The notes: generated from the sequence alone by a model not told the origin. Counted from the first letter of the stretch, positions 34,437-60,610 are shown. The stretch is 64,000 nt of DNA from Candidatus Methanomethylophilaceae archaeon (GCA_944320495.1 CALUHR010000005.1:192001-256000), one strand, 5' to 3'. A program made the numbers and translations.

Positions 34437-37400
34437 ATGAGGCACGAGAGGCATCTCGTCATCGCGCTCCTCGCCGTGGCCCTCGTGGCGGTGTCGTGCT
34501 GTCTGGCGCTGACGTACGCGTCGGAGGATTCCAACGCCGAGATGGTGGCGGATCCGACGTACACGCTGACGCTACACGACGACAGCGGGACGAACAAGGA
34601 CATCCCGTACACCGTGTCCAGTGCCGTGAAGGTCCGTCTCCCGATCTACGAGTTCGAGAGGGACGGGTACTACCTTGAGTACTGGACGGACGGAACCAAT
34701 AACTATCGTCCCGGGAGCGAGATTCCCCAGTTGACGAAGGATACGACCTACACCACCGTTTGGAAGCAGGGACATGGGAACCAGCTTCCGGATGTTGTCG
34801 GTTCACCTGGCGAGGAATTGCGCATCGAGACGTTGAAGATGGTGAGCACCAGCTCTGTCGATTCGTTCTCCTGCACCGCATACCCCGAGGAATGGCTGAC
34901 GAACATGGGATACGCTTCTGGGGTCTTTGAAGGAAGCACCACGGAAGCGGGAATTTACTATCTCTGTTTCGACATCTCAATCTACCACATCAACCCGACC
35001 TACTACTGGTTCAGGATAATCATCGAACCCGAAGAATACACCCTCGACGATAAGTTCACTGTCGAATTCGACACCAACGGCGGAACCGTCGACAACGCCC
35101 AGGAGCTGAACAGCAAATCGGCACCAGTGGGAACGATCATCACCCTTCCTTCCCCCGATTCCTGTCACAATAACAACAACACGCTTCTCGGATGGACGGT
35201 CATGGTCAACGGCGTGCCGATGACCGCGATGGGGGTGTGCGGACAGTACACCATCGACCCCGATGCTGCGGACGTGTCCGAAGGCGAGCCGATAACCATC
35301 GAGGCAAGTTGGTATGCAGAGCAGTACGGACTGATCTTCAACGCCTTCGGATCGCCCGGTGTCACCGGTGCCGTGGCGAGGGAGGGTGACAACTACAAGA
35401 TGGTGGCCACCACCGAAACCCAGATTGGATACACCTTCGGCGGATGGACCGAATGGGACTCCACGGACACCGTCATCCCCATCGATTCCCTCTACACCGT
35501 CGAGAAGGGGATGCAGTTCTTCGGCTACTGGATCGAGAACGGGGCATCGACGTACCACGTCACCCTCGATGCCAACGGCGGGAGCGGTACCCTGAACGTC
35601 GACGTCAGGCAGGGCGACAAGGTCCAGCTGCCGAAGGCCATGCCTGACCGCGCCGGATACACCTTCGTCGGTTGGGCTGACGAGAGCGGGAAGCTGATCG
35701 AGACCGAGACTTTCACACCCTCGAAGGCGACAACGACTCTCAAGGCCCAGTGGACCCAGAACGTCAACCCCGTAGATAGCATCACATTCTCTGGATCGTC
35801 CGCAGTGAGCAAAGGCTCCAGGATCAGCATCCAAGCCACCGCATACCTCCAGTTCGACGACGACAGCCTCCCTGGCGACCGTCGCGTCTACTTCAAGGTC
35901 GCCGAAGGAGACGAGGACATCATCGAAATCACCTCCCAAAGCACCAACTCCACCGGAGGCACCTGCAGGGTCCTCGGACTCAGCATCGGCAAGGCCACGC
36001 TGATTGCCTACTCCGCCGACGGCAACTGCACCGTGGAGAAGACCATCACCGTAACCGCCAAGACGTACGTCCACACCCTGACCTACGACGCCAACGGCGG
36101 AGTGAATGCCCCGTACCAGGCACCCGTCGATACCGGAACGGCATCGTCCTACACGTTCACCATCTCCGAGCAGGAGCCCTCCTATGAGGGATACGATTTC
36201 CTCGGATGGGCGACCACCAAGGATGGGGAACCCGAGTACGGATGGGGCGAGAACCAGAAGCGCACCATAACCGTCTCCGGCTCTCAGACGCTCTATGCCA
36301 GATGGCAGGAGAAGGAGACTCTGACCCATCAGATCGTCTACGACGCCAACGGCGGCATCTGGTCCGACGGCGAGACGCAGGATGTCATCGGCACGATAAC
36401 CACCGACGAGTCCTACGAGTTCGCCATCAGGCAGGATCTGCCGACGAGATTGGGGTATCAGTTCGTCGGATGGTCGGAGGACAAGAACGCGGACCCCGAT
36501 TCCGAGGATCTCCTTCAGGCGAAGGATCCACTGGTTGTTTCTGGAACCAAGACACTATATGCGATTTGGGATGACAACCGCACAACATTCACACTGAAAT
36601 ACGACGCCAACCACGGAGATGCCGATTCCGTACCAGAACCTTGGACGGACAAGACCCCCAGCATCTCCTACACGACGGATGTTGACTTCTCCGTCATACC
36701 CACTAGGGATGGATACACGTTCTTGGGATGGTCTAAGTCGCCCAGTGCAAGTTATCCGGAGTTCACCGCCGACGGTGAAACCACGATCACTCTGCGCGCC
36801 GCCGCATCTGGTGCTCCGACTGAGGTGACACTTTATGCTGTGTGGAAGTTGGCATCCAACATCCATGTGCTGACGTTCGATGCCAACGGCGGTACGGGTG
36901 CCCCCGAGGCACTGAAGTCCGAGCCGACCCAGGAACCGTCATACCCCTTCGAGATTCCGAAGGAGGTGCCCACGAGGGAGTTCTATACCTTCCTGGGATG
37001 GTCGAGCGATCCCAACGCTAAGAGTCCGACGTACACCGTCTCCCCTCCCGACAATGAGGTGATCGTCAAGAAGGAGCTCATACTCTATGCGATATGGGCC
37101 CCGAGCGAGGACTTCTACTCTTACCAGCTCATCTACGATCTCAACGGTGGTGTGGGGGACGGATTCGATTCCATCGTCGAACCGAGCCAGGATAAGTCCT
37201 ACACCTTTGATGTGACCACACTCGAACCTGCCAGGGATGATGGAGCTAGATTCCTTGGCTGGACACTGGATGAGGATGACTCCTCTCCCGACTACGGACA
37301 CAAGACCGGCCAGAAGGACACGGTCGAGGCCACCTCGGAACAGCCAATCATCGTCCTTCACGCTGTATGGAAGGAGATTCCGGCAGGTTCCATCATCGTC

Positions 37401-37754
37401 CAGTTCAACACCAATGGCGGTTGCACTGTGGAATCCCAGGTGATTGCCAGCGGTGACAAGGCTACCGAGCCCAAGGATCCCGTTCGTGACGGGTACGAAT
37501 TCCTCGGTTGGTTCACGGCCTCTGGCGAAAGATGGGACTTCAACACCTCCATAACCGCGGATCTGACGCTCTTCGCCCTTTGGGAGAAGACAGATTCACC
37601 CACCGGCCCCGATGACGATTCCACCGTATGGATTGTCATGATTGTTGTAGGCGCACTCTTGGTCGCGATCGGATTCGCCACCAGAGTAGAATTCGCTGCC
37701 TACGTTGGAATCATCTGTACCGTCATGGGAGTCGCTTTCTTCCTGATATTCTGA
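34437..37754 (+). CDS. Cell-surface protein with multiple Listeria-Bacteroides (Flg_new/InlB-B-like) repeats
   Basis: Repeated Y/F-DANGG...P...GY.F.GW....G...LYA.W units; signal peptide; C-terminal TM hairpin. Confidence 0.88.
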   Translation: MRHERHLVIALLAVALVAVSCCLALTYASEDSNAEMVADPTYTLTLHDDSGTNKDIPYTVSSAVKVRLPIYEFERDGYYLEYWTDGTNNYRPGSEIPQLTKDTTYTTVWKQGHGNQLPDVVGSPGEELRIETLKMVSTSSVDSFSCTAYPEEWLTNMGYASGVFEGSTTEAGIYYLCFDISIYHINPTYYWFRIIIEPEEYTLDDKFTVEFDTNGGTVDNAQELNSKSAPVGTIITLPSPDSCHNNNNTLLGWTVMVNGVPMTAMGVCGQYTIDPDAADVSEGEPITIEASWYAEQYGLIFNAFGSPGVTGAVAREGDNYKMVATTETQIGYTFGGWTEWDSTDTVIPIDSLYTVEKGMQFFGYWIENGASTYHVTLDANGGSGTLNVDVRQGDKVQLPKAMPDRAGYTFVGWADESGKLIETETFTPSKATTTLKAQWTQNVNPVDSITFSGSSAVSKGSRISIQATAYLQFDDDSLPGDRRVYFKVAEGDEDIIEITSQSTNSTGGTCRVLGLSIGKATLIAYSADGNCTVEKTITVTAKTYVHTLTYDANGGVNAPYQAPVDTGTASSYTFTISEQEPSYEGYDFLGWATTKDGEPEYGWGENQKRTITVSGSQTLYARWQEKETLTHQIVYDANGGIWSDGETQDVIGTITTDESYEFAIRQDLPTRLGYQFVGWSEDKNADPDSEDLLQAKDPLVVSGTKTLYAIWDDNRTTFTLKYDANHGDADSVPEPWTDKTPSISYTTDVDFSVIPTRDGYTFLGWSKSPSASYPEFTADGETTITLRAAASGAPTEVTLYAVWKLASNIHVLTFDANGGTGAPEALKSEPTQEPSYPFEIPKEVPTREFYTFLGWSSDPNAKSPTYTVSPPDNEVIVKKELILYAIWAPSEDFYSYQLIYDLNGGVGDGFDSIVEPSQDKSYTFDVTTLEPARDDGARFLGWTLDEDDSSPDYGHKTGQKDTVEATSEQPIIVLHAVWKEIPAGSIIVQFNTNGGCTVESQVIASGDKATEPKDPVRDGYEFLGWFTASGERWDFNTSITADLTLFALWEKTDSPTGPDDDSTVWIVMIVVGALLVAIGFATRVEFAAYVGIICTVMGVAFFLIF

Positions 37755-37764
37755 GTTGATTGAA

Positions 37765-39915
37765 ATGAAAGATAGAACGATGCTGATGATGTCCGTGATT
37801 GTGCTGATCGCATCCGTGTTCTGCACAGCGGCCATCACATATGATCAGGACGTCGAGGGGGCAACCTCTCCGTCCAGTCTCTGCAGCGTGTCGTTCGTCC
37901 CCAATCTAAGCGGTGACGGACATGACACCAGCCAGGCCCACACATACGATGTCCTCAAAGGCAACACCATCGAACTCCCAACCAAGGAATTCACGAACAC
38001 CAACCACGTACTCATCGGATGGACGGTCGGATCCGTCGACGGGACGGAATTGTTGACAGGTGCCGAATATACGGTGAATGAGAACACAACGTTCTACGCC
38101 AAATGGGTGGAGACGAACGTCGCCGCAACCCATCAGTCCGACTGGGATTCGAACCTGACCGTCGGTGGAGAGTTCGATAAGACCTACTCGTTCGATTCGT
38201 TCTGGAGTGTATCCGATCCCCGCATCATCAGTGGACCCGACTGGCTTCATGCGGAGGTGAATGGAGACGGCGATGCCCATTTCTACGGTAACGCGGAATC
38301 CTCCGGAAGCTGGTATGTCGAGGTACTCTTCACCCACAATATCGACACTTACAGGCTCTGGTGGCAGATCACTGTGCCTTCTGCCATGGACAAGGAGATA
38401 ACTTACACCTATGATGGCAACGAAGGATCGAACATCACCCTTTCCTCGTTCACCCTTCGTGCGGGAACCACACACATTCTGGCCGACGCTTCCGTCACAT
38501 CCAGGGCTGGATATGACCTCTGGGGATGGACCATCCGTGACGGTGCGGGCAATCAGCCGACCTACGCTCTCGGATCTGCATACACGGCCAGCGAGGAGCT
38601 GTATGACAGATATGGTGCGAACCAGACAATCTCCGCACACTGGGAACCGATGGCCAACATCCTCATCCTGAACGCATCTGGTGCGGATGGAATATCCGCT
38701 CAGGTTGTCAGGGAGGGGGACATCCTGACATTCCCTGCCACCACGGACTACAAGATGCCAGGATACGTCCTGAAGGGATGGTTCTTGGACAGCGATGAGA
38801 ACGCTATTTACGCCCCCGGATACCAGTACAAGGTTGGGTCCGCCGCAAAGGGGGCCATCTATGCTTGTGCATACTGGGTAGCCGAAGGGACAGAGACCTA
38901 CAAGGTGACCTACAACGTCAATGGAGGGGAGGACTACTCCCTGAGCCAGGAGGTTGAGGAAGGAAAGTCCGTGGTCCTGCCCACAGAGGGTTTCACCAAG
39001 AAGGGTTTCACACTCGTCGGATGGTCCGAGAAGACTGAGGATGACGAGCCTTCCCTGGCCGGACAGGCATACACCCCCACGAAGAGCGTAACCTTGTATG
39101 CAATCTATCGCGAAAGTTCCTCTGGATCGGGAGAGACATATTCCGTGACCTTCAATGTCAACGGCGGAACCGGTGTGTTCCAAGCCCAGGAGGTGGAGGA
39201 GGGCGGATACGCCACAAAACCCTCGACCGATCCCGTCAAAGAACGGCACATCTTTATGGGCTGGTTCCAGACAGGTTCCGCTACCGCATGGGATTTCGCC
39301 AGCAAACCAGTCACACAGAATATCAGTCTGGTTGCCAACTGGAGGGAGCATTTCACGGTCACGACTGATGGTAATATCGTCACTCTGAACGTGGATTCGT
39401 ACTTCAGCAGACTCGGCATATCGACTGTCGACTGGGGAGACGGCAAGATCCAGGAGAATGTCAGCACCAAGGTCACCCACACATACGATGATGATGCCTC
39501 TGGAACCATCACGGTGACGACGAAGCAGACTGGGGCATCCACGACGTACGTCTCGTCCTACAAGTTCTCCATCGGAGAGGGCGGAGGCACCCCACTGAAG
39601 GCGGTGGGCAAGATTACCGACAACGGGGACGGCACATGGACCCTCAGTGCTGAAGGTTCCACAGGCATGGACTCCTACGCATGGTACGTCAACGATGAGT
39701 TCGTCGGCGATAAGGCAACCGTAACTCTCGAGAATCTCGAGGATGGCAGGTATGACGTGAAGCTGGTGGTTGATGCCGATGGTGCAGAAAAGCCGTCCGA
39801 ATGGAAAGGCTCCTTCACAGTTGGAGATACTTTCGACTACACACTGATTATCTATGCCGTGGTCATCGTCGTGGTTATCATCGCACTGATAATGGTAGCG
39901 AGGAACTTCCTATGA
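37765..39915 (+). CDS. Cell-surface protein with Listeria-Bacteroides repeats and a PKD-like domain
   Basis: NGG...GF.L.GW..LYA.W repeats, VDWGDG motif, C-terminal TM. Confidence 0.85.
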   Translation: MKDRTMLMMSVIVLIASVFCTAAITYDQDVEGATSPSSLCSVSFVPNLSGDGHDTSQAHTYDVLKGNTIELPTKEFTNTNHVLIGWTVGSVDGTELLTGAEYTVNENTTFYAKWVETNVAATHQSDWDSNLTVGGEFDKTYSFDSFWSVSDPRIISGPDWLHAEVNGDGDAHFYGNAESSGSWYVEVLFTHNIDTYRLWWQITVPSAMDKEITYTYDGNEGSNITLSSFTLRAGTTHILADASVTSRAGYDLWGWTIRDGAGNQPTYALGSAYTASEELYDRYGANQTISAHWEPMANILILNASGADGISAQVVREGDILTFPATTDYKMPGYVLKGWFLDSDENAIYAPGYQYKVGSAAKGAIYACAYWVAEGTETYKVTYNVNGGEDYSLSQEVEEGKSVVLPTEGFTKKGFTLVGWSEKTEDDEPSLAGQAYTPTKSVTLYAIYRESSSGSGETYSVTFNVNGGTGVFQAQEVEEGGYATKPSTDPVKERHIFMGWFQTGSATAWDFASKPVTQNISLVANWREHFTVTTDGNIVTLNVDSYFSRLGISTVDWGDGKIQENVSTKVTHTYDDDASGTITVTTKQTGASTTYVSSYKFSIGEGGGTPLKAVGKITDNGDGTWTLSAEGSTGMDSYAWYVNDEFVGDKATVTLENLEDGRYDVKLVVDADGAEKPSEWKGSFTVGDTFDYTLIIYAVVIVVVIIALIMVARNFL

Positions 39916-41816
39916 CTGAGACGCTGAATACCAGCCGTAAGCGCATCTTCGCCATCGGTGCCGTATTCATGCTACTCTTCGCCGGATTGGCAGTTACGGC
40001 GACGGATGACGAGAACGAGTCTCAGGCCCTGATCATCGACAATTCCACGGCTTTCGCCATCGGTGTTTCGGTGGGTCTCGGCATCGCCGCCGTAACCATC
40101 ACAGTCCTGGATCTCGTACTCGACAGGACGGAGGAGGAATTCGAGGAGGCCAACCGTTCGGCTGAAGCGGGCATAGTCGCCAGTGCGCTCATTTCCACAG
40201 TAGCCCAGTATGAGAACTCCCTGTCTCAGGTTGCCAACATCTGGCCCTTGACCAATGACCACTGGGTGAGACAGGCCGAGATGACCGCCGCATCGATGTG
40301 GTCCTTTGGCGAGGAGCTGGATTTCGACGAGCTCCTGGTTCAATCGGACATCTTCAACAACATCGGCCAGAATCTCGATAACCTGTCGTCCCAGTTCAAC
40401 GACACTTGGGACACGATAGGGGAACGTGTGAAGGAGTGGAATACCACCGAATTCGCCGAAGTATATGGGACTGGAATGATGTCGATCAGCGTCGACTACG
40501 GCAGCAACCATCTGACCGCCGATTCCGGAGAGGACTTTGACATAGGCGTTGGAATCGTCCTTCGCGACGTCGTCAAGGGACAAGACCAGGCATGGCTTTC
40601 CGGCGGAGCTCTGTATGCCTCCGAGGAATGCACAATCACGGACGGAGAACACGTCGTCAATCTCGGAAAGGGCTGGAACACACTGCCCGAACCCGACGAA
40701 TTCTACGGAGGAATCTGGACATTCCCCGCTGGCGTGACATTCTGCGGGAATATAGTACCGATCGTCGGATCTGGCGGTGCCGAAGGCGTTGCCGGACTAG
40801 TGGCCGACATAAACGGCGAGACGAAGGTCTTCACGGCCGCCAACTACGAGGAAACGTCCGAGCTCTACAAACCGACTTGCGATGCGTACGATGGTGACAG
40901 CTACTATGACGAAGTCTCGGTCTCCATCACACCGAAGGAATCCGAGAATGCCCAGTCCCTGGACATCACGGACGTCCTTGCCAGATACCAGATGATTCTC
41001 CAGACTCTGGAGGCCACACTGCCCGTCTGCGTGGATGCGGCCTCCACGGTATGGGAGATCTACAACATGTCTGGCGAGGCCAACCTATACCTGACAACCC
41101 TCATGGTCCCAGAGGAATACGAGAACGTCCGTCTCACCGATGACCAGCGTACCATGATTACCATCTTCGCGATGGATCAGCTCACGCAGTACTGGGAAGA
41201 CAACGGCGACGAGGTTAGAAAGACATCCTACACCATGACCAAGGAATCGATGTCGCTGTATTGCCGTGGCAACGTCGTCGTCACGGACTACAGTGTTGAC
41301 GGCACCTCTAAGGCCGTGGTGTACGAGGACGTTATCTTCACGCCCCTGTTCAGCGAGGATTACAACCTCAAAACGGGAATGAACGAGATTACGGATGCGG
41401 GATCCGTCATGATCTGGGGCAAGGGACAGTCCCTCTCCACTTTTGACGTGACCGATCCGGAGATGGCGGTCCTGATTCCCGTGGCCAAGGGAGTGAAACT
41501 CGAGGTTGCGGCCATCATGTACAGCGGAGAGTACGTCGACTCTCTCCAGCTCAATGCGGTCAACGTGGATAACGTGGAATCTGACACACCCATAATCCCC
41601 GACCCTCCGAAGCCTCAGCCCAACAACGATCTGGATGAACTCATCCGTCTCATTATGGTCGTCGCTGGGCTGCTTATTCTGCTGTGGGGGTTGAGGACCA
41701 TGGACGTACGGTTTATCATCATCGGAATCGCAGTGATGGTTGCCGGAATCATCTTCGCTGAGAAGATCGAGAATCTGCTCCAGAGCGCCTTCGGCTGGGA
41801 ATTCCGCTGGCCCTGA
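39912..41816 (+). CDS. Membrane-anchored ectodomain protein, possibly pleolipovirus spike/fusogen-like
   Basis: ATGA overlap with the upstream gene; signal peptide, second hydrophobic segment, helical region with WVRQAEMTAA, beta-rich region, Pro linker, C-terminal TM hairpin. The family call is inference. Confidence 0.75.
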   Translation: MTETLNTSRKRIFAIGAVFMLLFAGLAVTATDDENESQALIIDNSTAFAIGVSVGLGIAAVTITVLDLVLDRTEEEFEEANRSAEAGIVASALISTVAQYENSLSQVANIWPLTNDHWVRQAEMTAASMWSFGEELDFDELLVQSDIFNNIGQNLDNLSSQFNDTWDTIGERVKEWNTTEFAEVYGTGMMSISVDYGSNHLTADSGEDFDIGVGIVLRDVVKGQDQAWLSGGALYASEECTITDGEHVVNLGKGWNTLPEPDEFYGGIWTFPAGVTFCGNIVPIVGSGGAEGVAGLVADINGETKVFTAANYEETSELYKPTCDAYDGDSYYDEVSVSITPKESENAQSLDITDVLARYQMILQTLEATLPVCVDAASTVWEIYNMSGEANLYLTTLMVPEEYENVRLTDDQRTMITIFAMDQLTQYWEDNGDEVRKTSYTMTKESMSLYCRGNVVVTDYSVDGTSKAVVYEDVIFTPLFSEDYNLKTGMNEITDAGSVMIWGKGQSLSTFDVTDPEMAVLIPVAKGVKLEVAAIMYSGEYVDSLQLNAVNVDNVESDTPIIPDPPKPQPNNDLDELIRLIMVVAGLLILLWGLRTMDVRFIIIGIAVMVAGIIFAEKIENLLQSAFGWEFRWP

Positions 41817-41928
41817 GTCCTGAACCATTAACCAAATGGGCCTAACGGCCCAAAATCCCCTTCCAATCCCATTATTCGAACAGAAGAGTCAGGAAGCGCA
41901 TTTATCCTGACCACCTCATCACGACACC

Positions 41929-42564
41929 ATGAACCACAAGACGGCTGCCGTGGTCGTCATCGCGGTCGTCATCCTGGCCGGTGCCGGACTCATTCTTTAC
42001 AACGAGGATCGCAAGGCCCACGCGGATGACCCCGCATACATCCTCCACGGCAATGGCGGAGTCCTGACGGACGGATCGGAGACCTACGAGAACAGATGGA
42101 CCCTTGAAGGCTGTCGTTTCTCCAATGCGGACCGCACATTCGTCGGATGGAACTCGGAACCCGACGGCAAGGGCGAGTGGCATCAGATCGGCGAACGCAG
42201 CGATGACCGGAACATCGACCTGTACGCACAGTGGGGATTCGGATTGAAGATTACCGTCATCGACGGGACTTCCGATGGGATACTGGACGGATACAACGGA
42301 TTCCTCACCTACGGGAACAAGGAATGGCGTCTCCTGGCGGACATGGTGATTCCGTCCGCCGGGGCCGAACTGACCCTGGACACGCACATGGAGTGGGAAT
42401 TCGACGGACTCCGCTTCACCGATTCGCAGAACCTCTACACGATTGAGATCGACATCGAGGGCGGCGTAGTGACATCCAGCTCCGCCAGCGGTGGCGACGT
42501 CGTCCTCTACCTGGACCCCATCACCGATACCGAACTCACCGTGACCGTCACCGACATCGACTGA
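41929..42564 (+). CDS. Small surface protein with one Listeria-Bacteroides repeat
   Basis: YILHGNGG...RTFVGWNSEPDGKG...DLYAQW after an N-terminal TM. Confidence 0.8.
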   Translation: MNHKTAAVVVIAVVILAGAGLILYNEDRKAHADDPAYILHGNGGVLTDGSETYENRWTLEGCRFSNADRTFVGWNSEPDGKGEWHQIGERSDDRNIDLYAQWGFGLKITVIDGTSDGILDGYNGFLTYGNKEWRLLADMVIPSAGAELTLDTHMEWEFDGLRFTDSQNLYTIEIDIEGGVVTSSSASGGDVVLYLDPITDTELTVTVTDID

Positions 42565-42630: not shown

Positions 42631-43200
42631 ATGTCCAGCATCCGCGTCGTCCGTCAGAGGATCCAACCCTGGAAGGGGCGCGACTGCACCGCCGAGAGGT
42701 ACTACGTGAACGACTGGGTCGACCGCATCCAGCACAACCTCCTCCTCTACGCCTCCCGGAATCCCGGCACCCCGTCGCTGTCCCTTCTCCGCAAGGTCGG
42801 GAAGGTGTGGTACGACTCCAACGCGGGATGCCACGTCGACGGGATCTTCGACAGCTATCTGGCCCGGTTCATCGCCCGCACCATGGAGGACACCCAGTTC
42901 CTCGAATCCGAGTACAACGTACCCTACGGAACTACCGAGATCGTGGACTGGACGTCGCTCGTCGACGCCGTTCCCATGGAGGAGCGCAACGGGATATGCG
43001 TCTTCAGCCACGGCGGACGCGAGTACCTCGTGGAGCGCGGATACTACGAACACGCCCGCCGCACGATCCAAGCCTACCGTCTGTTCGACGGCACGGTGGA
43101 CTTCGAGACGGAGTCCGCCGACCTGATGGAGCTCGTCCGCAGGCTGATCGGAGACGACGGGCATGAGGGGATCGTGCCGCTGTCGTCGATGTTCTCGCGA
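42631..43200 (+). CDS. Hypothetical protein (189 aa), proposed CGA stop
   Basis: Coding-like codon bias to about 43200; first in-frame CGA at 43198-43200; TATTATA box ~25 nt upstream. Confidence 0.7.
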
Positions 43201-43203
43201 CCT

Positions 43204-45501
43204 TCGCACCTTCCCGCCGTAGCTGGCGATCGTCGACTCCCTGCACTCCTTCTCAGCCAGCCTCATGCGGTTGCCCATGTAGCGCCAGTCAGGCACCCCG
43301 TCCCCGGCTGGCAGCGTCAGCCTCAGGTTCAGGAGATCGGAGGCGTTGTCGATGAGGATGTCCTCCCCTCCGATCAGTTTCTTCGCCATGGCGCAGACGA
43401 TGTACTGCTGGACGCTCCTCGGCATCTTCCTCCTGGTGCGGAGGACGATCACCTGCCCGGACGTCTTGAACGGCACCGGCTGGTATGTGACGGCCACGAC
43501 GCGGCGGCCCCTCAGGGAGACGGCGATGCACTCGCCCTTGTGGACATCCCCGTCCGCCGGTGCGAACTTGCCCCACCCGTTGTTGCCCTTCTTCGCGATG
43601 ACCGTCGGGACGGTTCCGGAGACCTTCGGCGGCTTGGCGGAATCCTCCTCGAGGAACCCGTTCGCCTTGTAGTTCGCCGTCTTTATCGTCCTGACCTTGA
43701 ACGACTTCGCCGGTTCGGCGGGGCCGTCGTTGACGACCTCCATTCCGTTGCGTCTCTGTTCGGCGACGAAGTCCAGCCAATCTCTCATGTAAGCCGTTAT
43801 GTCGTCGCCATTCACCCTCGCCCCTTTCTCCGATGGGTTCACCCACCATTCGTCGGGGGCGACATCGACTACCCTGAACAGATTGGATGGCCTATTGTCG
43901 CGAAGTATGTCGATGATGTCGAAAACATCATCAGTCCCCGACGGCGATGCAATCCTGGTAGCGGTCTTGTCGTGCGGTTTCCCCGCCGAGAGATAGACGA
44001 TGCAATGGCGGTCGTCCAGGCGGATCGTGCTCACGAGCCTGTTGTGATCGAGGATGCTGGAGCGGAGTACCCTGCAGCCCTTGGCGTCACCGGACACGGC
44101 CTTCATGGGCACTATTGCGAACACCGTCCCCTCGATGCGTACGGTGTTCAGCATACTGTTGAGCAGAGAAAGAACATCTGAGGGGGACAGATCGCGTTCC
44201 GAGATGTCCGTGACGATATGGTCGGGCCTCTTGTTCCCCGTCGGGAGTTTGTCATCGGGAAATCTGCGGGGGACCACATTGATCCTCCTGGCACCCGATA
44301 GGATGACGTTGAAGATCGCCGTGGTGTACCTCCACGGATCGGACTCCATCCCGTAGATTCCTTTGTTGACCATCTTGTCGGAGCCGCTCCTGCTCTCCGC
44401 CTTGGCACCCACCCTGTAGGAGACCGCCTTGATGAACGCCCCGTCACCGCAGAACGGATCCAGGATGACCTGCCCCGTCACCGGGTTCAGGGTGGACACC
44501 ATCGCCTGCCCGTAGAGTCCCAGGTCGGGTTTCTGACGCTTCTGATCCAGATTGTGTTCCTGGCACTCGGTGAACACGGAATACAGCTGCCCCATCTGCT
44601 CCATGTCCATCTTGTGGATGTACCTGCGCGTCTCTATCGCCAGTCTTCTTATGGGACTTTGGCCGTCTTCGCCCCTTTTGTTCAACCGACCCTCCTTGGT
44701 GAGGGTGTCCAGGATGTCATAGAACACATCCTCCGCTGACCCATCGGTTCCGGGGAAGACTATGCCGAGCTTCCGCAGTGTCGCCTCGGTGTGATCCTTG
44801 AGAATCTTACAGTCGGTGTTGTACGGATCGCCCTTGAGATCGAACTCGCTGTAGGTCTTGTCCAACTTGGCCAGCAGCATCAGGCCCATGAGGACATTCC
44901 GTTCCTCTCTGGACCGCGTCACCTTGTCGAACTTTGTGCGAAGGTCCCTGCAGATCTTGGCAAGTTCCTTGGGATTGTCACTCAGCCCCCTGTATTTCAA
45001 CCCCAGACCGACCGAGATGTAGTCTCTGGCATCGGATTCCGAGAACGCCGTGAAATCCCTGACGGTCCTCTGGGGATCATAGAGGCACGTGTACCCGTCA
45101 GTGTCCAGCTGGCAGATGTACGGCTGGATGTTGAGGACACCTTTCTTCGCGGTGCAGCCGACGGCGATCGCTTGCTTGAACCGCCCGTGTCTCATCACCT
45201 CGCCCGCATAGAAGACGGCCCCGTTGTCCGCATACTTGGCGATTGTCTCGAAATCCATACGGAGATGGTCCGTCTCGTCGACGGAGCGTTGGTAACGCGG
45301 ATCGGCCTTCACCTCCACGATTATCGGAATCCCGTCCGACATGACGACGATGTCTGGGATGCCCTGATGCCCCGACCCCCTCTTGGAGGCCTTCGATAAC
45401 GCCTGGGCGATGCGCTTGTCCTTCGTACCTTCGAACTCCGGCTTCAATCCCGCCTTCTTCATGAGTTCGCCGATCTTGTATGTGACATCGCGCTCGCTCA
45501 A
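43204..45501 (-). CDS. BcgI-like restriction-modification fusion (PD-ExK nuclease + N6-MTase-like + specificity domain), 765 aa, proposed CGA stop
   Basis: GIPDIVV...IIVEVKA nuclease motif; ILDPFCGDGAFI SAM-binding motif; C-terminal TRD-like region ending PDWRYM; first in-frame CGA at 43204-43206. Confidence 0.75.
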
Positions 45502-48225: not shown

Positions 48226-48303
48226 CTCTCTGAATCTCCTTTGCAGTTTGTATCCAAACTGCCATTCTGATTATTTAGATGTTGGCACCGAGAACGAAAT
48301 GAG

Positions 48304-48376
48304 CGCCCTGGCTGGGATTTGAACCCAAGTCGGAGCCTCGACAGGGCTCCATGATAGGCCGCTACACTACCAGGGC
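48304..48376 (-). tRNA. tRNA-Asp(GTC)
   Basis: GCCCTGG...CCAGGGC acceptor stem, GAGCC-CTGTCGA-GGCTC anticodon arm, GGTTCAAATCC T-arm, no encoded CCA, CTTATAT box upstream. Confidence 0.97.
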
Positions 48377-54020: not shown

Positions 54021-54915
54021 CGGCGACGGCCCCTCCGATCCGAGGGGCAAACTCCTTCCTTCCGACCTACCAATTTCTTGTTAGTGCCACTTTTTTCCTC
54101 GATTAACGTCCGGAATTGAAAACAGTGAGACGCTTTTCCCGAGTTAGTGGGGATTTTTTCTGCGATTAAGGGGAAACACGGATGTCCGTCAAAGGAGCGG
54201 TCGCACAGGAAACCCGGACATCCGTTTCGCAGGCGCATTGGTAATCGACCACTGATTATAAAAGGGATGGGCGGACGAAGAGGAATCGGAACGTCCGCCC
54301 TCGGATCCGCTGGATTCTTTGGGAGCACCCGGAGCGGATCCCGGCCACAAAGGCTCTACAGAGTGACCGTATGTCCAGATGCGACCGGGTATTTATTCCG
54401 CCCGATGGAACCCCCAGAGAGGGGGCGGGTGCGTCAAGAAGGAGGACCGCACCCGCCCGCCGCCATCGGGATGATTGAATGGGATGCACGCTCCGACGAC
54501 AATAGGTCAAGAAGCATTTCCCGATGTCGGATGGATAATGGATAGTGACCGAACTATAAATTCCGTTCGATGGGAAGCCGGGGTGTCCCATCCTTGTCCA
54601 GTACCTTCCATCCGGACACCCCGGCACCGGTGCGTGTCTCTCCCCCAGAGGTAACAACATGGGGCACCGGGTCGCTGCTCTTCCAGAATGCGACGTCCCT
54701 CGAATTGCGTCGCCGTATAAAGATTGAGCGGTCACAACCGATGGTGACCGAACCAACACTCGCATTTCCGCACATCCCATTCATAAACGCTTCCCATCAC
54801 ATCGTTCCAGCGGCCGTCCCCCGTTGAAAACCGGCACCCCCGAATCGCAAACATCTTCCGCGAAGCGGAAGGAGCGTGATACGATCGAACAGCACACCCT
54901 CCCGAAGGTGATGTG

Positions 54916-55866
54916 ATGGATCTCTTGGGACTGTATCCTTTCATCGCCATCGGATGCGCCATATTCGGACTATTCGTGGGCAGCTGGTGCAAACGCCGCA
55001 CCCAGGTGATAGTCCCCTTCAACGATCCCCTCTCGTGGACGTTGCTCCTGATGGTGTTCGTCATCCTGCTGATGCCGGACCTCAAGCCCGAATGGGCGTT
55101 CATCGACCCCTACGACCTCAACCACGACGCCTGCCTGATCGGCTTCTTCGTCATGTACATCTACGGATACTGCAAGGAGGAGCTCCTGATGGAGTTCGTC
55201 TCCGCCCATGACATCTTCAAGCTCAAGCAGGAGATCAAGCCCATCGCCTACTACTTCAACGACGAGGCCCAGCTCTGCTGGCAGCCGCAGTCCATGAGGT
55301 ACGTCCTCAAGAGGCTGATCTTCAACGTCGACAATCCCCTGGACTACGACTTCAGCAACATCAACCGCCGCCGCTTCGTCGAGTTCCAGGGTAAGTTCCT
55401 GAAGATGTCCGCCTATGTGGTGGACACCGCCAAGATGACCGAGAAGGTGGAGTACGTCTACAAGTGGCGTCTCAAGTTCAAGGTCATCAAGCTCCACTTC
55501 GATCCCTCTCCGGTGAACTCCTTCGACATGTACGACTTCTACGTCGAGGGGAAGATCGCCAACGAGTACGTCCAGAACTACCAGCGTCTCAAGGTCCAGA
55601 ACGCCAACTCCTCGGCGGACATGAGGATGGCCAGGATCCTCGGGGTCGTGGACCTCATGGAGGGACTCACTAGCATGACACCCGACGCCGTCGTCATGGA
55701 CCGCCTCATATCCGACATGGACGCCAGGAACGGCGTCACCACCGAGGGCGACGTCCGCCGCGCGGACAGGTCCGGCAAGCAGAGCGCGAAGGCCAGGAAT
55801 CGCGTCCAGCGCATGGCCAGGGAGATGCAGTCCGAGGAGGTGAACGACGATGCCTCTGATGAGCGA
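54916..55866 (+). CDS. Membrane protein with N-terminal TMs and charged helical C-terminus (316 aa), proposed CGA stop
   Basis: GAAGGTGA SD; codon bias collapses after EEVNDDASDE; first in-frame CGA at 55864-55866, overlapping the next gene's start. Confidence 0.75.
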
Positions 55867-57121
55867 CGACCCCTACATGATGGGCCCGCCCCGCTCCCAC
55901 GTCATCACAGAGCAGCCGGACCTCAACACCACCGAGATCACATCCTACGGATCGGCGTACATGGACGTCAAGGCCGCCCTGTACCTCCTGGACCAGATGA
56001 TCGAGGAGGCCGACGAGCGGTACACCCGCGCCCTGGCCTCCATGTACGGCCAGAGATACGAGGAAACGAGGGAGATCCTCACCCGCAAGTCCATGTTCCT
56101 CGCATCCCCCAAGCCGAAGGTCCAGAGCTACGAGGAGATGCAGGCCGTCAAGGTGGCCAAGGAGATCTACCGCAAGGCGTCCACCCTCAGGGACCTCAAA
56201 CAGCTCCGCAAGGAGGTGGAGGCCTACGGCACGATGGTGGGCACCCAGGAGTACGGCGAGAGGATGCTCGAGAACGGGCTGTCCAACGACGTCTCCCGCA
56301 CCGTCTTCAAGAAGAGGGCGGCCAAGGGACTCACGAACAACTACGAGTCCATCAAGGCCATGAGGGAGGGCCGTCTGAACGACGGACTCGACGAGCAGCA
56401 GCGTAGGATGGAGAGGATGGCCAGACTCATCCTCATGGCGAACGAGTTCGACGACGCGGAGAGAGGCTACCCCGAGGAACCCGACGTCGGAAGGCTCAGA
56501 CGCGCCAGCGGTGCCCCGGCGACGGTACCCGTCGCCAATCCCGAACCCATAAGGGCCGTGGCCAACGACGACTACGAGGAACCCGACGAGGGCATCGACA
56601 TGGGCATCCTTGACCTCATCACCACCTACTCGGACGGATTCGAGGAGGAGGAAGAGGAGGAATCTGAGGAGACTCCCGCCGACGTCCCCGAGGGACCCGA
56701 GCCGGAGGAACCGCTCCGCATAGCCCCGGTCGCCAGCTCGATGGAGGATGTCCTTAACTCGATCCCGAAGGAGACGCCCAAGGAGTACATCGCACCCGCA
56801 GCCAGCTCGATGGAGGACGTTCTGAAATCCATCCCGAGGACCGAGCCCGAGAGGGAGATGATCGGCCCGATCTCCGAGGCCGACCGCACCCGCATCGACG
56901 CCCTCCGCGGACAGCGTGTCGAGCGTCTTCCCCCGGTCAGCAGCAGCATCGAGGACATCCTGGACGTCATGGATAGGATAGACGCCCTGGACCGCTCCGA
57001 CGCCGAGGACGACTACATCAAGTGGATGCTCAGGCAGAACCTCGAGAAGGGCCGCACCGAGCAGATCGACAGCGAGGAGGACGGCGGCGTCGTCATCATA
57101 AGGCAGGAGGGATCCGAATGA
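55850..57121 (+). CDS. Acidic helical hypothetical protein (423 aa) with internal repeats
   Basis: GAGGTGA SD; IAPxASSMEDVLxSIP repeated twice plus a degenerate third copy; ATGA overlap with the next gene. Confidence 0.8.
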   Translation: MPLMSDDPYMMGPPRSHVITEQPDLNTTEITSYGSAYMDVKAALYLLDQMIEEADERYTRALASMYGQRYEETREILTRKSMFLASPKPKVQSYEEMQAVKVAKEIYRKASTLRDLKQLRKEVEAYGTMVGTQEYGERMLENGLSNDVSRTVFKKRAAKGLTNNYESIKAMREGRLNDGLDEQQRRMERMARLILMANEFDDAERGYPEEPDVGRLRRASGAPATVPVANPEPIRAVANDDYEEPDEGIDMGILDLITTYSDGFEEEEEEESEETPADVPEGPEPEEPLRIAPVASSMEDVLNSIPKETPKEYIAPAASSMEDVLKSIPRTEPEREMIGPISEADRTRIDALRGQRVERLPPVSSSIEDILDVMDRIDALDRSDAEDDYIKWMLRQNLEKGRTEQIDSEEDGGVVIIRQEGSE

Positions 57122-57486
57122 GCAACCTGTTCATCCAGGTCACCCCGGACGCCCTCAACGCCTACAACGACCTGAGGTACTACTACTCCGTCGGCGACTA
57201 CAACGCCACCTACCTCCGCGTCTTCGAGACCTATCTCAGCCCCCTGTTCAAGGAGGACTTCCTCGTGAAGGACAAGCTCTACGAGGAGGTCTCCCGCCTC
57301 TATCCCCTGCCGGACGAGGACGACGACTGCCAGTACATCTCCGCCAGGGCCTACCTGCTCTACATGAGGGCGTACGAGAAGATCATGCGCCAGAAGGGCA
57401 TCATCGGCGGATGGGACGACGGCGAGGCCGTGGCCGAGCAGACCGACATGAGGGTCATCGACCCGATGGTGGAGTACAGGAGGCGA
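57118..57486 (+). CDS. Hypothetical protein (122 aa), proposed CGA stop overlapping the next ATG
   Basis: First in-frame CGA at 57484-57486 in CGATG. Confidence 0.75.
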
Positions 57487-57782
57487 TGCCGATGGACTAC
57501 CACACCAACATGGTCGGATACGTCGGCAGGCTCCGCATCGTCAGCCCCATAAGGCTCGACATGTCCGTCGACGGCAACGGCCTCTGCCGTGTCCTCGAAC
57601 CCGACATGCGCCTTGACGGCATCGGCACCTGCCCGGACGAGGCCCTCAACGAGTTCATGGGCGAGGTCCTCTTCGCCTGGGACGCCTTCGTTAAGGATGA
57701 TATCGGCAAGTTGGATGACTCTGCCAAAGAACTCCGCTCGTGGCTTCTCTCCCACTTCGAGGAGATCGGGGGTGAGAGCCGA
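57486..57782 (+). CDS. HicB-like fold protein (98 aa), proposed CGA stop overlapping the next ATG
   Basis: VSPIRLDM...LDGIGTCPDEALNEFMGEVLFAWDAF; first in-frame CGA at 57780-57782 in CGATG. Confidence 0.7.
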
Positions 57783-59488
57783 TGGAGGACGTGGAGGCGT
57801 GGGAATGGCACGAGCAGCACCGTCTCGGAAGGAAGATCATCGGCGACATCTACGTCGAGGACGCCTTCGATCCCGATTCCGATGGGCCGGAGGACGACGA
57901 CATCGACTTCGAGGATGACGTCCTCGGATTCGATCCCGAAACAGCCGAGCAGCAGCAGGACGAGGTACCTGTCCCCGAGTGGATCAACTCCGCCATCGAC
58001 GTGGACAAGCTCATGTCGGACATCTTCCGCCCCGGCACCAACCACGTCACCGACGGGATGAGGGGCGGAGGCAAGACCCATCAGGCCGTCGCCTACACCG
58101 AATACATGGTGGAGGGCCGCTTCAAGGGGATGCCACGCGTCATCATGCTCACCAACATCATCTTCGTCAAGAGGGTGAGCTTCGAGGGCGACCTCGAGGA
58201 TCAGTTCGTCATGGAGGACCCGCCCGGCGTCCACCACGTCACCAGCATGGAGCAGATGTTCCGCATACAGACGAAGATGATGAGGCGCTACGGCAGGGAG
58301 GGCGTGATGTTCATGCTCGTGCTCGACGAGGCGCAGAACTTCCTGTTGGCGGACGAGTACCAGCAGGACACCTCCATCGCCTTCATCAAGTTCTACGGGA
58401 CCACCAGGAAGTTCAACACCTGCATCTGGCTCCTGACCCCTTCGATCAACAACCTCCCTCCCAGGGCCAGGAACTTCCTCGATGCGGACCCCGCCGGCTA
58501 CGTCTCCTGCCAGTGGAGGAAGAACAAGCAGCTCGCCGCCCAGTACATCGCGGCCAACCACATAGAGAACGCCGATGTCCGCGAGTTCACCACCATGAAG
58601 ATGGGTGCCAACATGGCCCCCGTCTGGTTCAGGATAACCACGACACCGTGGACGCGCCCCCTTGAGGAGTTGGGAATAGGCGAGTACGGCTACGACCATC
58701 TCGCCAACGCCGACTTCAAGGTCAGCATCGACGACAACAACCCCTTCGACTTCAAGGCGTTCATGGAGGCGACCTCGGACATGCCCTCCTACCGCATGGC
58801 GACGGTCATGCAGGAGTTCTTCGACAGGATGGACGGCAAGTCCGCCGACCCGGACGCGCCCCCCGAGGACGACCCCAAGGCCGAGAGGACGGCAGAGATC
58901 CTCAGGATGAGGGAAATCGGCCTGACCTTCGATCAGATAGAGTTCGTCACGGGGGTGGCGGCATCGACCTGCCGCTATTGGATCAACAGATACGGCTCCG
59001 CAAATCCGGCCGCACAAGCGGCCGACAGTCCCAAGGGGGCGGGGGGCGGAGACCCCGCCCAACCCAAGCGCGGGAACCGCTCTAGGAATACTCCTAGAGT
59101 GGGTTCCCGCGCGGGTAAGAAGGGGCTGAAAACACCTCCGAAAAGGCTGAAGAGGGACTCTGCTCTAGAAAAGCTAGAGTTGCTGAAAAATGACACAGCC
59201 AGATCTTTGAGCAGCAGCAACGCAACCACCCCGTTTTCGCGCCCTTATATGTATAATCCTAGAGAGGGGGAGGAGGACGGGGGGTCTCGCGGAAAGTTGC
59301 CGATTGACCCCCAACCGGTTGGCGGACGGTTGGCAGCCGAGACACCCCTAGAGGGGGAGGATTCGGCTGACCTAAACCATGATGAGGATGAATCGTTCGA
59401 CGACGGGGTATGGGGCTACGGCGAAGATGGGGGATCCGATGACGGGGAACCCTACGACGTCGGGGAGGAATACGAAGAGGCGGAGCGA
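57782..59488 (+). CDS. P-loop NTPase (Zot/virus-extrusion-like) with a downstream HTH and a disordered tail
   Basis: Walker A GMRGGGKT, Walker B LVLDEAQ, RKF...WLLTP, HTH-like IGLTFDQIEFVTGVAASTCRYW. The only in-frame CGA (59486-59488) lies 6 codons before the TGA at 59506. Confidence 0.8.
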
Positions 59489-59509
59489 TCTCCGCGGGAA
59501 GAGTGAAAC

Positions 59510-60610
59510 ATGAGGGATGGGAAGATGAGCAACAGCAAACGGAAGGATGACGACCCGCTCTCCTACGGGAGCGTGATGGCCGTGTGGATGGGGAAGTCCT
59601 ACCGCATCCCCGTCGATGCGGACGGATACGTGCCCATGGAGGCCCTGGTCATGCGCTATCAGCAGATGGGGAACAACGGAAGGGACAAGGGAAGGGACTC
59701 GGACATAGTGTTCCCCTCCCATGTCAGGCCGAAGGAGATCGTCAGATGGTGGGCGGACCCGTCCTCGTGCGACATCGAGGGCATCGACACCCGCGACTCC
59801 AAGGTGTACGACGTCTCCGGCCTGAAGGGAAGGCGCATGAAGGCCGCCCAGAGGAAGATCGGGATAGTCACCCCTTCCGCCGACGAACAGAGACGCATAC
59901 GCAGGATCCTCTCGGAGGCGTTCACCGCCGCCGAGCTGGACGCCATGACGAGGGAGGGGTCCTTCGTCATCCGCACCCGCCCGAACTGCGGGAGCGTGAT
60001 GGGATACTACCTCAGGAAGGCCGACGGCCAGGAGATCCCCCTCATAACCTTGGAGGAGGGCGTGTCCCCGGACACCGTCGTCCACGAGACCGTCCACCAC
60101 GCAAGGACGTGCAGGAGGTCGGGCAAGTACACCAGGACGGCGTTCCCCATGAAGGGCGGAAGGCTGGACGAGGCGTACTACGGACTGAGCCAGCAGCAGC
60201 GCGACATGATCAACGACGCCGAGGAGACGGAGACGACAGCCGAGGCGACAGCGAGGACCAAGAGGGACCCCTGCCCCACCGGGTATTGGGACAATGTCGG
60301 CGGAAGGGAGGCGTACATCCGCGACAAGACCGCCCTCGCAAGGTCGTGCGGCGGAGGGGACTGCACCCTGAAGGGGGCCAAGGCCGTCAGGACCGTGGAG
60401 AAGCAGTACGACAAGCTGGACATCGCGATGGCGTCTATCATGGCTGACGTCCCCGCGAAGGAGTCCGCCGCGAGGATCGCCAAGGGTTCCGCGTCCGGTA
60501 GGCCGAAGACGAAGACGGCAGCAACAGCGAAATCCAAGAGCCAGACTCCGAAGAAGACCACGAAGGCAAAGAGCCAGACATCCAAAACCAAGGGGAAAGG
60601 GACGAGGCGA
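59510..60610 (+). CDS. Zincin-like metallopeptidase (HExxH) with a Lys/Thr/Ser-rich tail, proposed CGA stop
   Basis: TVVHETVHH motif; the only in-frame CGA (60608-60610) is followed by a pyrimidine tract; TGA at 60658. Confidence 0.7.

What the first reader, a model, noticed from the sequence alone, without database searches (positions are those of the whole stretch)
57484..57784. CGATG stop/start overlaps replacing the usual TGATG coupling
Two consecutive operon junctions read AGG-CGA-TG (57484-57488) and AGC-CGA-TG (57780-57784). In both, the in-frame CGA shares its A with the next ATG, with SD-like GGAGG or GGGGGTGA just upstream. This is the 1-nt stop/start overlap typical of translational coupling, with CGA in place of TGA. 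A third junction (ATGAGCGA, 55859-55866) gives an 8-nt overlap.
Basis: seen in the sequence. Interest (0 to 1): 0.8.

Follow-up and report, generated by a model that had tools for sequence, protein, structure and literature searches.

The report
CGA stop codons at gene junctions
The two CGATG junctions are real stop/start overlaps in which the arginine codon CGA ends the upstream gene, one local sign that this gut methanogen and its genus use CGA as a fourth, probably leaky, stop codon, which has not been described for any free-living organism.

Summary
Observation confirmed. CGA 57484-57486 is in frame with gene 57118.. and CGA 57780-57782 with gene 57486..; each shares its A with the next ATG.

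Read with CGA as stop, six + strand genes (54913-60610) tile without long overlaps, and five of them end in CGA. Homologues of three genes end there: p2 and p5 have TGA at the aligned codon, and p3's relatives stop 1-4 residues past the aligned region. The ATG at 57782 is confirmed by a conserved N-terminus.

Genome-wide:
- CGA is about 0.19 per 1000 codons inside genes.
- It ends 407 of 1658 called genes.
- Coding score falls across CGA as sharply as across TGA.
- 55 CGATG junctions lead in frame into the next gene, against 47 TGATG.
- Only 6 CGAs have coding sequence on both sides. One is a conserved Arg in the release-factor gene aRF1, kept in 17 of 20 genus members and 0 of 16 genomes from other genera.

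New here:
- tRNA-Arg(UCG) is present, but its 31-39 stem pair is mismatched in 25 of 26 genus genomes and paired in 13 of 15 from other genera.
- The junctions lie in a mobile-element-like module with a Zot-like ATPase, and the module follows the host code.

Earlier agents of this scan reported CGA=stop on other pieces of this genome. I found no publication for this lineage. How termination works is unknown.

The parts
54913..55866 (+). Gene pA (317 aa, no family match). It ends at CGA 55864-55866, followed by a second CGA at 55867-55869, and overlaps the start of p1 (ATG 55850 or 55859).
   Evidence: coding score 0.64 up to the CGA. The table-11 continuation (180 codons) holds 15 CGAs and reads as out-of-frame junk over gene p1.
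55850..57121 (+). Gene p1 (423 aa, no in-frame CGA). Ordinary TGA stop in an ATGA overlap with p2. SD-like GGAGGTGA at 55836-55843.
   Evidence: Homologues lie upstream of p2 and p4 in related elements.
57118..57486 (+). Gene p2 (122 aa). It ends at CGA 57484-57486, which shares its A with ATG 57486. A second in-frame CGA lies at 57490-57492.
   Evidence: Homologues end at the same place: the G128 copy ends ..EYRK+TGA where this one reads ..EYRR+CGA, two others stop 2-3 residues later with TGA, and the G116 copy also ends at CGA.
57478..57488 (+). First junction: AGGAGG-CGATG (SD-like hexamer, CGA stop, ATG).
57486..57782 (+). Gene p3 (98 aa; start ATG 57486 or 57492), a small accessory gene absent from the closest related modules. 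It ends at CGA 57780-57782, which shares its A with ATG 57782.
   Evidence: Remote homologues were found in 19 of 174 family genomes (counting this genome). In 9 of the 10 other genomes where tblastn recovered a match, the frame ends 1-4 residues past the aligned region. The G078 homologue has CGA where the G130 homologue has TGA. Atlas look-alikes are 96-103 aa.
57768..57784 (+). Second junction: GGGGGTGA, 4 nt, CGATG (6 nt between the SD-like motif and ATG).
57782..59488 (+). Gene p4 (568 aa), a Zot-like P-loop ATPase. The start at ATG 57782 is fixed by a conserved N-terminus. It ends at CGA 59486-59488, 6 codons before the next standard stop.
   Evidence: Pfam Zot E 1.8e-4 and PHROG Zot-like. 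Homologues in 46 of 174 family genomes. Alignment starts at residue 4-5, and ATG 57782 is the first start codon of its open frame.
59510..60610 (+). Gene p5 (366 aa). It ends at CGA 60608-60610.
   Evidence: The G115 homologue aligns to the last residue and is followed at once by TGA.

Best explanation
In this archaeon (uncultured Methanomassiliicoccales, family Methanomethylophilaceae, the genus that holds Candidatus Methanoprimaticola) CGA acts as a translation-termination signal. The two CGATG motifs are therefore the CGA version of the TGATG stop/start overlap. The ribosome ends gene p2 (or p3) at CGA and the next gene starts at the ATG that shares its A, behind an SD-like motif. The genes belong to a mobile-element-like module (p1-p2-p4-p5 with a Zot-like ATPase, plus an inserted small gene p3) that has adopted the host's code.

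Shown: coding ends at CGA here and in about a quarter of all genes, and homologues stop at or within a few codons of the same place.

Inferred:
- Termination is leaky and depends on context. T is favoured after terminator CGAs. None of the six CGAs with coding sequence on both sides is followed by T.
- tRNA-Arg(UCG), kept but with a broken 31-39 stem pair, decodes CGA only weakly.
- The conserved in-frame CGA in the aRF1 gene couples release-factor synthesis to termination efficiency at CGA.
- The overlaps serve translational coupling.

Not known: whether aRF1 itself releases the peptide at CGA.
For: Local:
- With CGA=* the operon tiles as 54913-55866, 55850-57121, 57118-57486, 57486-57782, 57782-59488 and 59510-60610.
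- These genes have no in-frame CGA before their terminator CGA.
- p2's CGA aligns with TGA in G128, and the G116 copy also ends at CGA.
- p3 homologues end 1-4 aa past the aligned region, and G078 has CGA where G130 has TGA.
- p5's CGA aligns with TGA in G115.
- The p4 N-terminus is conserved from residue 4-5, so ATG 57782 is the start and a table-11 p3 would overlap it by 280 nt.

Genome:
- Interior CGA is 34 in about 176,000 codons, while CGG, CGT and AGA are roughly 7-15 times commoner there.
- In 141 of 836 good ORFs the first CGA of the second half is followed by a tail of mostly negative coding score.
- A four-stop gene call gives TGA 1174, CGA 407, TAA 53, TAG 24.
- Mean score per codon goes from 0.40 to -0.34 across CGA and from 0.50 to -0.35 across TGA.
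- There are 55 CGATG junctions into the next gene, against 47 TGATG.
- Pelota ends ..ILRYRL+CGA and would be fused in frame to an unrelated synthase gene under table 11.
- Around aRF1, genes ending in CGA here have TGA or TAA mostly at offset 0-3 in 36 relatives. Other genus members (for example G086) have CGA where this genome has TGA.

Machinery:
- The aRF1 CGA at conserved Arg78 is present in 17 of 20 genus genomes and 0 of 16 from other genera.
- The tRNA-Arg(UCG) 31-39 pair is mismatched (A.A, C.A, U.C) in 25 of 26 genus genomes and paired in 13 of 15 from other genera.
Against: - A cognate tRNA-Arg(UCG) gene is present and scores as a normal tRNA, so CGA can in principle be read as Arg.
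- The aRF1 codon-recognition motifs NIKS and YxCxxxF are unchanged. Only a few genus-specific substitutions were seen, for example D/E to N ten residues before NIKS. No obvious way for the factor to accept C in the first codon position is visible.
- At least one CGA (aRF1 Arg78) must be read through.
- There is no protein-level or RNA-level evidence.
- Gene calls came from my own simple caller, so the counts (407, 55) are approximate.
- For p4 the C-terminus is not conserved, and CGA lies only 6 codons before a standard stop, so that case is not informative on its own.
Confidence: 0.85

Rival explanations
1. CGA is not recognised by a release factor. It is an effectively unassigned 'hungry' codon. 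Ribosomes stall there because tRNA-Arg(UCG) is crippled or scarce, and are resolved by rescue (Pelota/ABCE1 splitting, peptidyl-tRNA hydrolysis). The genomic footprint would be the same as for a stop codon.
For: The aRF1 recognition motifs are unchanged. tRNA-Arg(UCG) has a disrupted 31-39 pair throughout the genus. Extra in-frame stops follow CGA about 1.7 times more often than they follow TGA, as expected behind an inefficient end signal.
Against: A quarter of all genes, including housekeeping genes such as Pelota, would depend on a slow rescue route. The preference for T after terminator CGAs (221 of 407 against 336 of 1174 after TGA) looks like a termination context. Pelota lacks a peptide-release motif (my own knowledge).
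Confidence: 0.12
2. The mRNA is edited C-to-U at these sites, so the ribosome sees an ordinary UGA. CGA in DNA is a 'stop to be made'.
For: CGA and TGA differ by one transition and alternate at the same codon among relatives. The strong T bias after terminator CGAs could be an editing context.
Against: No mRNA C-to-U editing system is known in archaea (my own knowledge). Editing does not explain the genus-wide tRNA-Arg(UCG) 31-39 mismatch. It also does not explain why a CGA is kept at an essential Arg of aRF1.
Confidence: 0.04
3. Standard code: CGA is just a very rare arginine codon, the genes really extend to the next standard stop, and they overlap their neighbours by 67 and 280 nt. The CGATG motifs are chance.
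For: tRNA-Arg(UCG) exists. CGA is rare in the whole family, also in genera with no CGA terminators. CGATG is a common pentamer out of frame.
Against: Coding score collapses at CGA exactly as at TGA. Homologues stop there. The tails are R/S/T/P-rich junk over other genes. There are 55 CGATG junctions with the downstream gene in frame, and only 6 CGAs genome-wide have coding sequence on both sides.
Confidence: 0.02
4. Assembly or base-calling artefact turning TGA into CGA.
For: None beyond the single-base difference.
Against: TGAT is common in the same sequence, for example at 55857-55860. CGA is depleted inside genes, which an artefact would not cause. The same pattern is seen in independent assemblies of other genus members from different studies.
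Confidence: 0.01

Closest known systems
Sense-to-stop reassignments in organelles (NCBI tables 2, 22, 23: AGA/AGG in vertebrate mitochondria, TCA in Scenedesmus mitochondria, TTA in Thraustochytrium mitochondria; green-algal cases in PMC6821328 and PMC6551751)
   Same: A sense codon disappears from gene interiors and marks gene ends. An arginine codon is involved, as in vertebrate mitochondria.
   Different: Here it happens in a free-living (gut) archaeon with about 1,650 genes. The cognate tRNA gene is retained, the codon still seems to be read as Arg at a few sites, and it is used alongside TGA, TAA and TAG. The release factor shows no obvious change.
TGATG / ATGA stop-start overlaps (translational coupling by termination-reinitiation in prokaryotic operons)
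   Same: A 1-nt overlap of terminator and ATG, an SD-like motif a few nt upstream, and tightly packed genes on one strand. This genome has 47 TGATG and 259 ATGA junctions of the classical kind.
   Different: The terminator is CGA. CGA cannot form an ATGA-type overlap, so CGATG is its only overlap form. Coupling was not tested.
Speculated CGA=stop in two hydrothermal-vent archaeal assemblies with CGG-to-Trp (bioRxiv 10.64898/2026.04.02.715157)
   Same: CGA is absent from recognisable domains of an archaeon, and the author raises the possibility that it is a stop.
   Different: Those assemblies lack tRNA(UCG) and also reassign CGG, and the paper shows no evidence of termination at CGA. The lineage and habitat differ. 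Here CGG stays in use and tRNA(UCG) is kept in altered form.
Autoregulated release-factor genes (bacterial prfB with its in-frame UGA and +1 frameshift; my own knowledge)
   Same: The gene for the factor that ends translation carries, early in its own reading frame, the codon whose termination efficiency it would sense.
   Different: Here plain read-through of CGA as Arg would be needed, not a frameshift. The regulation is inferred only from conservation (17 of 20 genus genomes).
tRNAs with shortened (4-bp) anticodon stems that change stop-codon reading (trypanosomatid and ciliate tRNA-Trp; bacterial survey in PMC13092985)
   Same: A change in the number of paired positions of the anticodon stem goes with a change in codon meaning.
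   Different: There the shortened stem increases reading of UGA by tRNA-Trp. Here a mismatch at the loop-proximal 31-39 pair of tRNA-Arg(UCG) goes with loss of reading of its own cognate codon. The direction and the effect are untested.

Membership tests
Stop/start overlap for translational coupling (NGATG) | The terminator of the upstream gene shares its last base with the ATG of the downstream gene | tested here: met
   CGA 57484-57486 / ATG 57486-57488 and CGA 57780-57782 / ATG 57782-57784, with frames checked.
Stop/start overlap for translational coupling (NGATG) | The downstream ATG is the true start | tested here: met
   For 57782: p4 homologues align from residue 4-5, and it is the first start codon of the frame. 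For 57486 this is inconclusive, because ATG 57492 has the better SD spacing.
Stop/start overlap for translational coupling (NGATG) | Downstream translation depends on upstream termination | not testable with these tools
   Needs reporter or ribosome-profiling experiments.
Sense-to-stop codon reassignment | The codon is absent from conserved interior positions of genes | tested here: met
   0.19/1000 in the central 60% of 559 good ORFs. Only 6 CGAs have coding sequence on both sides. There are 0 CGAs (one more falls at an alignment gap) in about 8,400 aligned codons of the element's genus homologues.
Sense-to-stop codon reassignment | The codon sits where homologues have a standard stop | tested here: met
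   p2, p3 and p5. Genes around aRF1 mostly at offset 0-3 in 36 relatives, and the reverse case in G086, G100 and G101.
Sense-to-stop codon reassignment | The coding signal ends at the codon | tested here: met
   The score drop across CGA equals that across TGA. Pelota and the next gene are separated in frame only by CGA.
Sense-to-stop codon reassignment | The cognate tRNA is lost or disabled | tested here: inconclusive
   tRNA-Arg(UCG) is present, but its 31-39 pair is mismatched in 25 of 26 genus genomes and paired in 13 of 15 from other genera. The functional effect is unknown.
Sense-to-stop codon reassignment | The release factor is adapted to the new stop | tested here: inconclusive
   NIKS and YxCxxxF are unchanged and there are a few genus-specific substitutions. 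Only one aRF1 and one Pelota were found.
Sense-to-stop codon reassignment | Proteins end at the codon | not testable with these tools
   Needs proteomics.
Zot-like ATPase (Pfam PF05707) of a mobile element | Match to the family profile over the P-loop domain | tested here: met
   PF05707 at 21.4 bits (cut-off 20.3), residues 91-233. PHROG 197 Zot-like, E 5e-4. This is a weak, borderline match.
Virus or provirus | Capsid, portal, terminase or integrase genes, or a match to known viruses | tested here: not met
   No Pfam or PHROG hits for neighbours. No match in phage records or IMG/VR. The region is absent from the closest genome, G120, which is 79% complete. I call it 'mobile-element-like' only.

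The most novel reading that the evidence does not exclude
CGA is a context-dependent, leaky fourth stop codon in a whole genus of gut methanogens. It is kept in force by a deliberately weakened tRNA-Arg(UCG) (31-39 mismatch maintained through three different base combinations). Release-factor synthesis is tuned through the factor gene's own in-frame CGA. Resident mobile elements are locked to this code: their genes end in CGA and contain none inside, so they would be mistranslated in hosts with the standard code, and incoming elements with CGA codons would be truncated here.
Probability: 0.4. Interest if true: 0.95.

Novelty: new variant of a known kind. Interest (0 to 1): 0.85.

Why it matters
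- A sense codon turned into a stop has been established only in organelles. In a free-living archaeal genus it would widen what is thought possible for genetic-code evolution.
- It offers a natural system with an apparent intermediate state: the tRNA is kept but altered, the codon seems to be read two ways, and the release-factor gene carries the codon.
- In practice, table-11 gene calls for these genomes would be wrong for about a quarter of the genes (extended tails, false long overlaps, fused genes such as Pelota with its neighbour).
- For this window in particular, a mobile-element module follows the host's code. That bears on code changes as barriers to gene flow and to viruses.
- The genus includes Candidatus Methanoprimaticola sp. 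MG2, whose record title carries no MAG label. If a culture or enrichment exists, the question is directly testable by proteomics.

Tried and rejected
- Programmed frameshift or p3-p4 fusion: no slippery site at GAG-AGC-CGA-TGG. In relatives p4 starts at its own ATG directly after p2. Rejected.
- p3 as a non-gene: rejected. Coding score is 0.43, remote homologues occur in 19 of 174 genomes, and their ends match.
- Function of p3 and its neighbours: Pfam and PHROG gave nothing except the Zot-like ATPase. Atlas look-alikes of p3 are 96-103-aa hypothetical proteins, some viral, with a weak lead (0.89) to a PHD-like antitoxin. Left open.
- Provirus identification: no hit in phage records or IMG/VR. 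Element borders were not found: the closest genome lacks the whole 44-64 kb stretch but is only 79% complete.
- CGA terminators outside the genus: none at about 130 conserved gene ends in 16 genomes of 12 other genera. CGA is nevertheless very rare there too, so rarity seems to predate the reassignment.
- Back-up stops: in-frame stops in the six codons after CGA are about 1.7 times as frequent as after TGA. This is suggestive but may be a composition effect (CGATCG-type motifs).
- ARAGORN in batch mode failed to re-find the tRNA in L042, although it was found alone and by Rfam. I treated this as a tool quirk.

Full report
**1. The observation**

The sequence shows AGGAGG-CGA-TG at 57478-57488 and GGGGGTGA-GAGC-CGA-TG at 57768-57784. 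CGA 57484 is in frame with the gene that starts at ATG 57118. That start is itself in an ATGA overlap with the TGA of the preceding gene. CGA 57780 is in frame with ATG 57486.

Under table 11 the two upstream frames continue for 22 and 93 codons, to 57552 and 58061. Their translations are R/S/T/P-rich, typical of a wrong frame in GC-rich DNA.

The third junction (ATG 55859, CGA 55864-55866) is also there, with a second CGA right behind it. The SD-like GGAGGTGA at 55836-55843 fits ATG 55850 better, so that overlap is probably 17 nt rather than 8.

ATG 57492 is part of a second CGATG whose CGA is again in frame with p2. It has a better spacing to AGGAGG than ATG 57486 has, so p3 may start there.

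**2. The local genes**

With CGA read as stop, the + strand genes tile as follows:
- 54913-55866 (pA)
- 55850-57121 (p1, TGA stop)
- 57118-57486 (p2)
- 57486-57782 (p3)
- 57782-59488 (p4)
- 59510-60610 (p5)

None of these genes has an in-frame CGA before its terminator.

p4 is a weak but consistent match to Zot-like P-loop ATPases. Nothing else has a family. p4 has homologues in 46 of 174 genomes of the family, usually with p1, p2 and p5 beside it. This is a recurrent mobile-element-like module.

No capsid, integrase or known-virus match was found. The closest genome lacks the 44-64 kb stretch. I do not call it a provirus.

**3. Do the proteins end at CGA?**

- **p2.** This genome reads ..VEYRR+CGA. 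The G128 copy ends ..EEYRK+TGA at the aligned codon. G119 and G115 stop 2-3 residues later with TGA. The G116 copy again has CGA directly after ..DYLK.
- **p3.** It is absent from the closest modules, where p2 is followed directly by p4, but it has remote homologues elsewhere. In 9 of the 10 other genomes where tblastn recovered a match, the frame ends 1-4 residues past the aligned region. p3 with CGA as stop ends 4-5 residues past it. The G078 homologue has ..NVKKCD+CGA where the G130 homologue has ..NVKKRD+TGA.
- **p5.** The G115 homologue aligns to the last residue before the CGA and is followed at once by TGA.
- **p4.** Its N-terminus is conserved from residue 4-5, and ATG 57782 is the first start codon of its frame. 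A table-11 p3 would therefore overlap p4 by 280 nt with a junk-like tail.

**4. The genome**

The window is C5:192001-256000 of a 1.77-Mb, 61.5% GC assembly.

- In the central 60% of 559 high-scoring standard-code ORFs, CGA occurs 34 times in about 176,000 codons. CGG, CGT and AGA are roughly 7-15 times commoner there. CGA piles up in the last tenth of the ORFs.
- In 141 of 836 good ORFs the first CGA of the second half is followed by a tail with mostly negative coding score.
- A simple gene call with four stops gives 1658 genes: TGA 1174, CGA 407, TAA 53, TAG 24.
- The mean log-likelihood score per codon falls from 0.40 to -0.34 across CGA and from 0.50 to -0.35 across TGA.
- Only six CGAs have coding sequence on both sides, and none of them is followed by T.
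- T follows 54% of terminator CGAs, against 29% of TGAs.
- Pelota ends ..ILRYRL+CGA. Under table 11 it would be fused in frame with the following isopropylmalate/homocitrate-synthase-like gene into an 859-codon ORF.

**5.

CGATG junctions in which CGA is the upstream terminator and the ATG is in frame with the next called gene number 55. Of these, 50 have an SD-like motif and 46 use the first start codon of that gene's frame. The TGATG count is 47. The raw counts are 89 and 87.

TGA stops mostly overlap as ATGA (259 cases), a geometry closed to CGA. CGATG is therefore the CGA form of an overlap junction, not a special preference.

In-frame CGATG occurs only at called gene ends. Out of frame it is a common pentamer, and in-frame GGATG occurs 888 times inside genes.

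**6. Relatives**

Titles of the closest aRF1 loci place the organism among uncultured gut and rumen Methanomassiliicoccales / Methanomethylophilaceae. Candidatus Methanoprimaticola sp. MG2 has 91% aRF1 identity.

I compared 20-kb stretches around aRF1 from 20 genus members and 16 genomes of 12 other genera.
- Genes that end in CGA here end in TGA or TAA, mostly at offset 0-3, in the relatives.
- Control genes that end in TGA here show offset 0 or -1.
- Some genus members (G086, G100, G101, G121, G134) have CGA where this genome has TGA.
- No CGA terminator was seen at conserved gene ends outside the genus.
- CGA is very rare in aligned codons across the whole family, so rarity seems older than the stop function.
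- The element's genus homologues have no CGA in about 8,400 aligned codons (one more falls at an alignment gap). Copies from other genera have two, both opposite Arg.

**7. Machinery**

Two eRF1-domain genes exist, Pelota and aRF1.

aRF1 carries one in-frame CGA at the conserved Arg of ..AARLKTY.., followed by C. This CGA is present in 17 of 20 genus genomes and in none of 16 from other genera. The G086 copy has no CGA at this site, and its first CGA lies at the end of the aRF1 frame. NIKS and YxCxxxF are unchanged. A D/E-to-N change ten residues before NIKS is genus-specific.

tRNA-Arg(UCG) is present and scores as a normal tRNA. Its 31-39 pair is a mismatch (A.A, C.A or U.C) in 25 of 26 sampled genus genomes. 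It is Watson-Crick or G.U in 13 of 15 genomes of other genera; the other two have a mismatch at 27-43 instead. Three different base combinations keep the pair broken, which argues for selection rather than a single inherited accident. The sampled genomes are kin, however, and the functional effect is untested.

**8. Reading**

Shown:
- Coding ends at CGA in these junctions and in about a quarter of the genes.
- The ATG at 57782 is a true start.

Inferred:
- CGA is a leaky stop that depends on context.
- The altered tRNA reads it weakly.
- aRF1 senses it through its own CGA.
- The overlaps couple translation.

Open:
- Who releases the peptide. The rivals are ribosome rescue at an unassigned codon, mRNA editing to UGA, ordinary overlapping genes, and artefact. 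The last two are contradicted by the tests above.

**9. Novelty**

Full-text searches found nothing on CGA in Methanomethylophilaceae. The only related item is a speculation about two vent archaea in a 2026 preprint. Sense-to-stop papers concern organelles.

Earlier agents of this scan reported CGA=stop on other pieces of this genome. I re-derived it independently from this window. What I add:
- the junction statistics;
- the homologue ends for the element's genes;
- the tRNA 31-39 mismatch;
- the finding that a mobile-element-like module follows the code.

Noticed in passing
window 1412-30483: Five very similar ORFs of about 1,520-1,690 aa in alternating orientation, each ending ..AGGAGC-TGA, four of them followed by TCGCGA or TTGCGA. 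They have strong GC/AT skew and very high coding score, and no in-frame CGA apart from two near the 5' end of one frame. They look like a family of giant surface proteins.
   Followed up: no
window 3669-3767 (-): ARAGORN calls a 99-nt 'tRNA-Met' inside one of the giant ORFs. It is probably a false positive or would need an intron.
   Followed up: no
window 34422-42564 (+): Four genes at lower GC (about 0.55), three of them with Listeria-Bacteroides (Flg_new) repeats. These are adhesin-like proteins typical of gut Methanomassiliicoccales. All four end in TGA.
   Followed up: partly
window 43204-45501 (-): A 765-aa protein with a weak N-6 DNA methylase match. It ends at CGA and has a 200-codon table-11 tail that overlaps the neighbouring gene 42631-43200, which itself ends in CGA with a 327-codon tail.
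   Followed up: partly
window 48303-48376 (-): tRNA-Asp(GTC), a second copy in the contig (the other is at C5:105505), at the left edge of the unidirectional block of family-less genes that runs from about 49.7 kb to about 84 kb (beyond the window). It is a possible integration site. No integrase was found.
   Followed up: partly
G000 C1:20926-23502 (outside the window): Pelota ends in CGA (C1:22225-22227) and is in frame with the next gene, an isopropylmalate/homocitrate-synthase-like gene. Table 11 gives one 859-codon ORF.
   Followed up: yes
G000 C2:86932-86934 (outside the window): In-frame CGA at the conserved Arg78 of aRF1, followed by C. It is shared by 17 of 20 genus genomes and absent in 16 genomes of other genera.
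   Followed up: yes
G000 C13:413317-413390 (outside the window): tRNA-Arg(UCG) with an A31.A39 mismatch. In this genome the loop is also unusual (U32 and C38, where the other genus genomes have C32 and A38).
   Followed up: yes
genome-wide: TAG ends only 24 of 1658 called genes. This fits a pyrrolysine-using lineage. I did not look for pyl genes.
   Followed up: no
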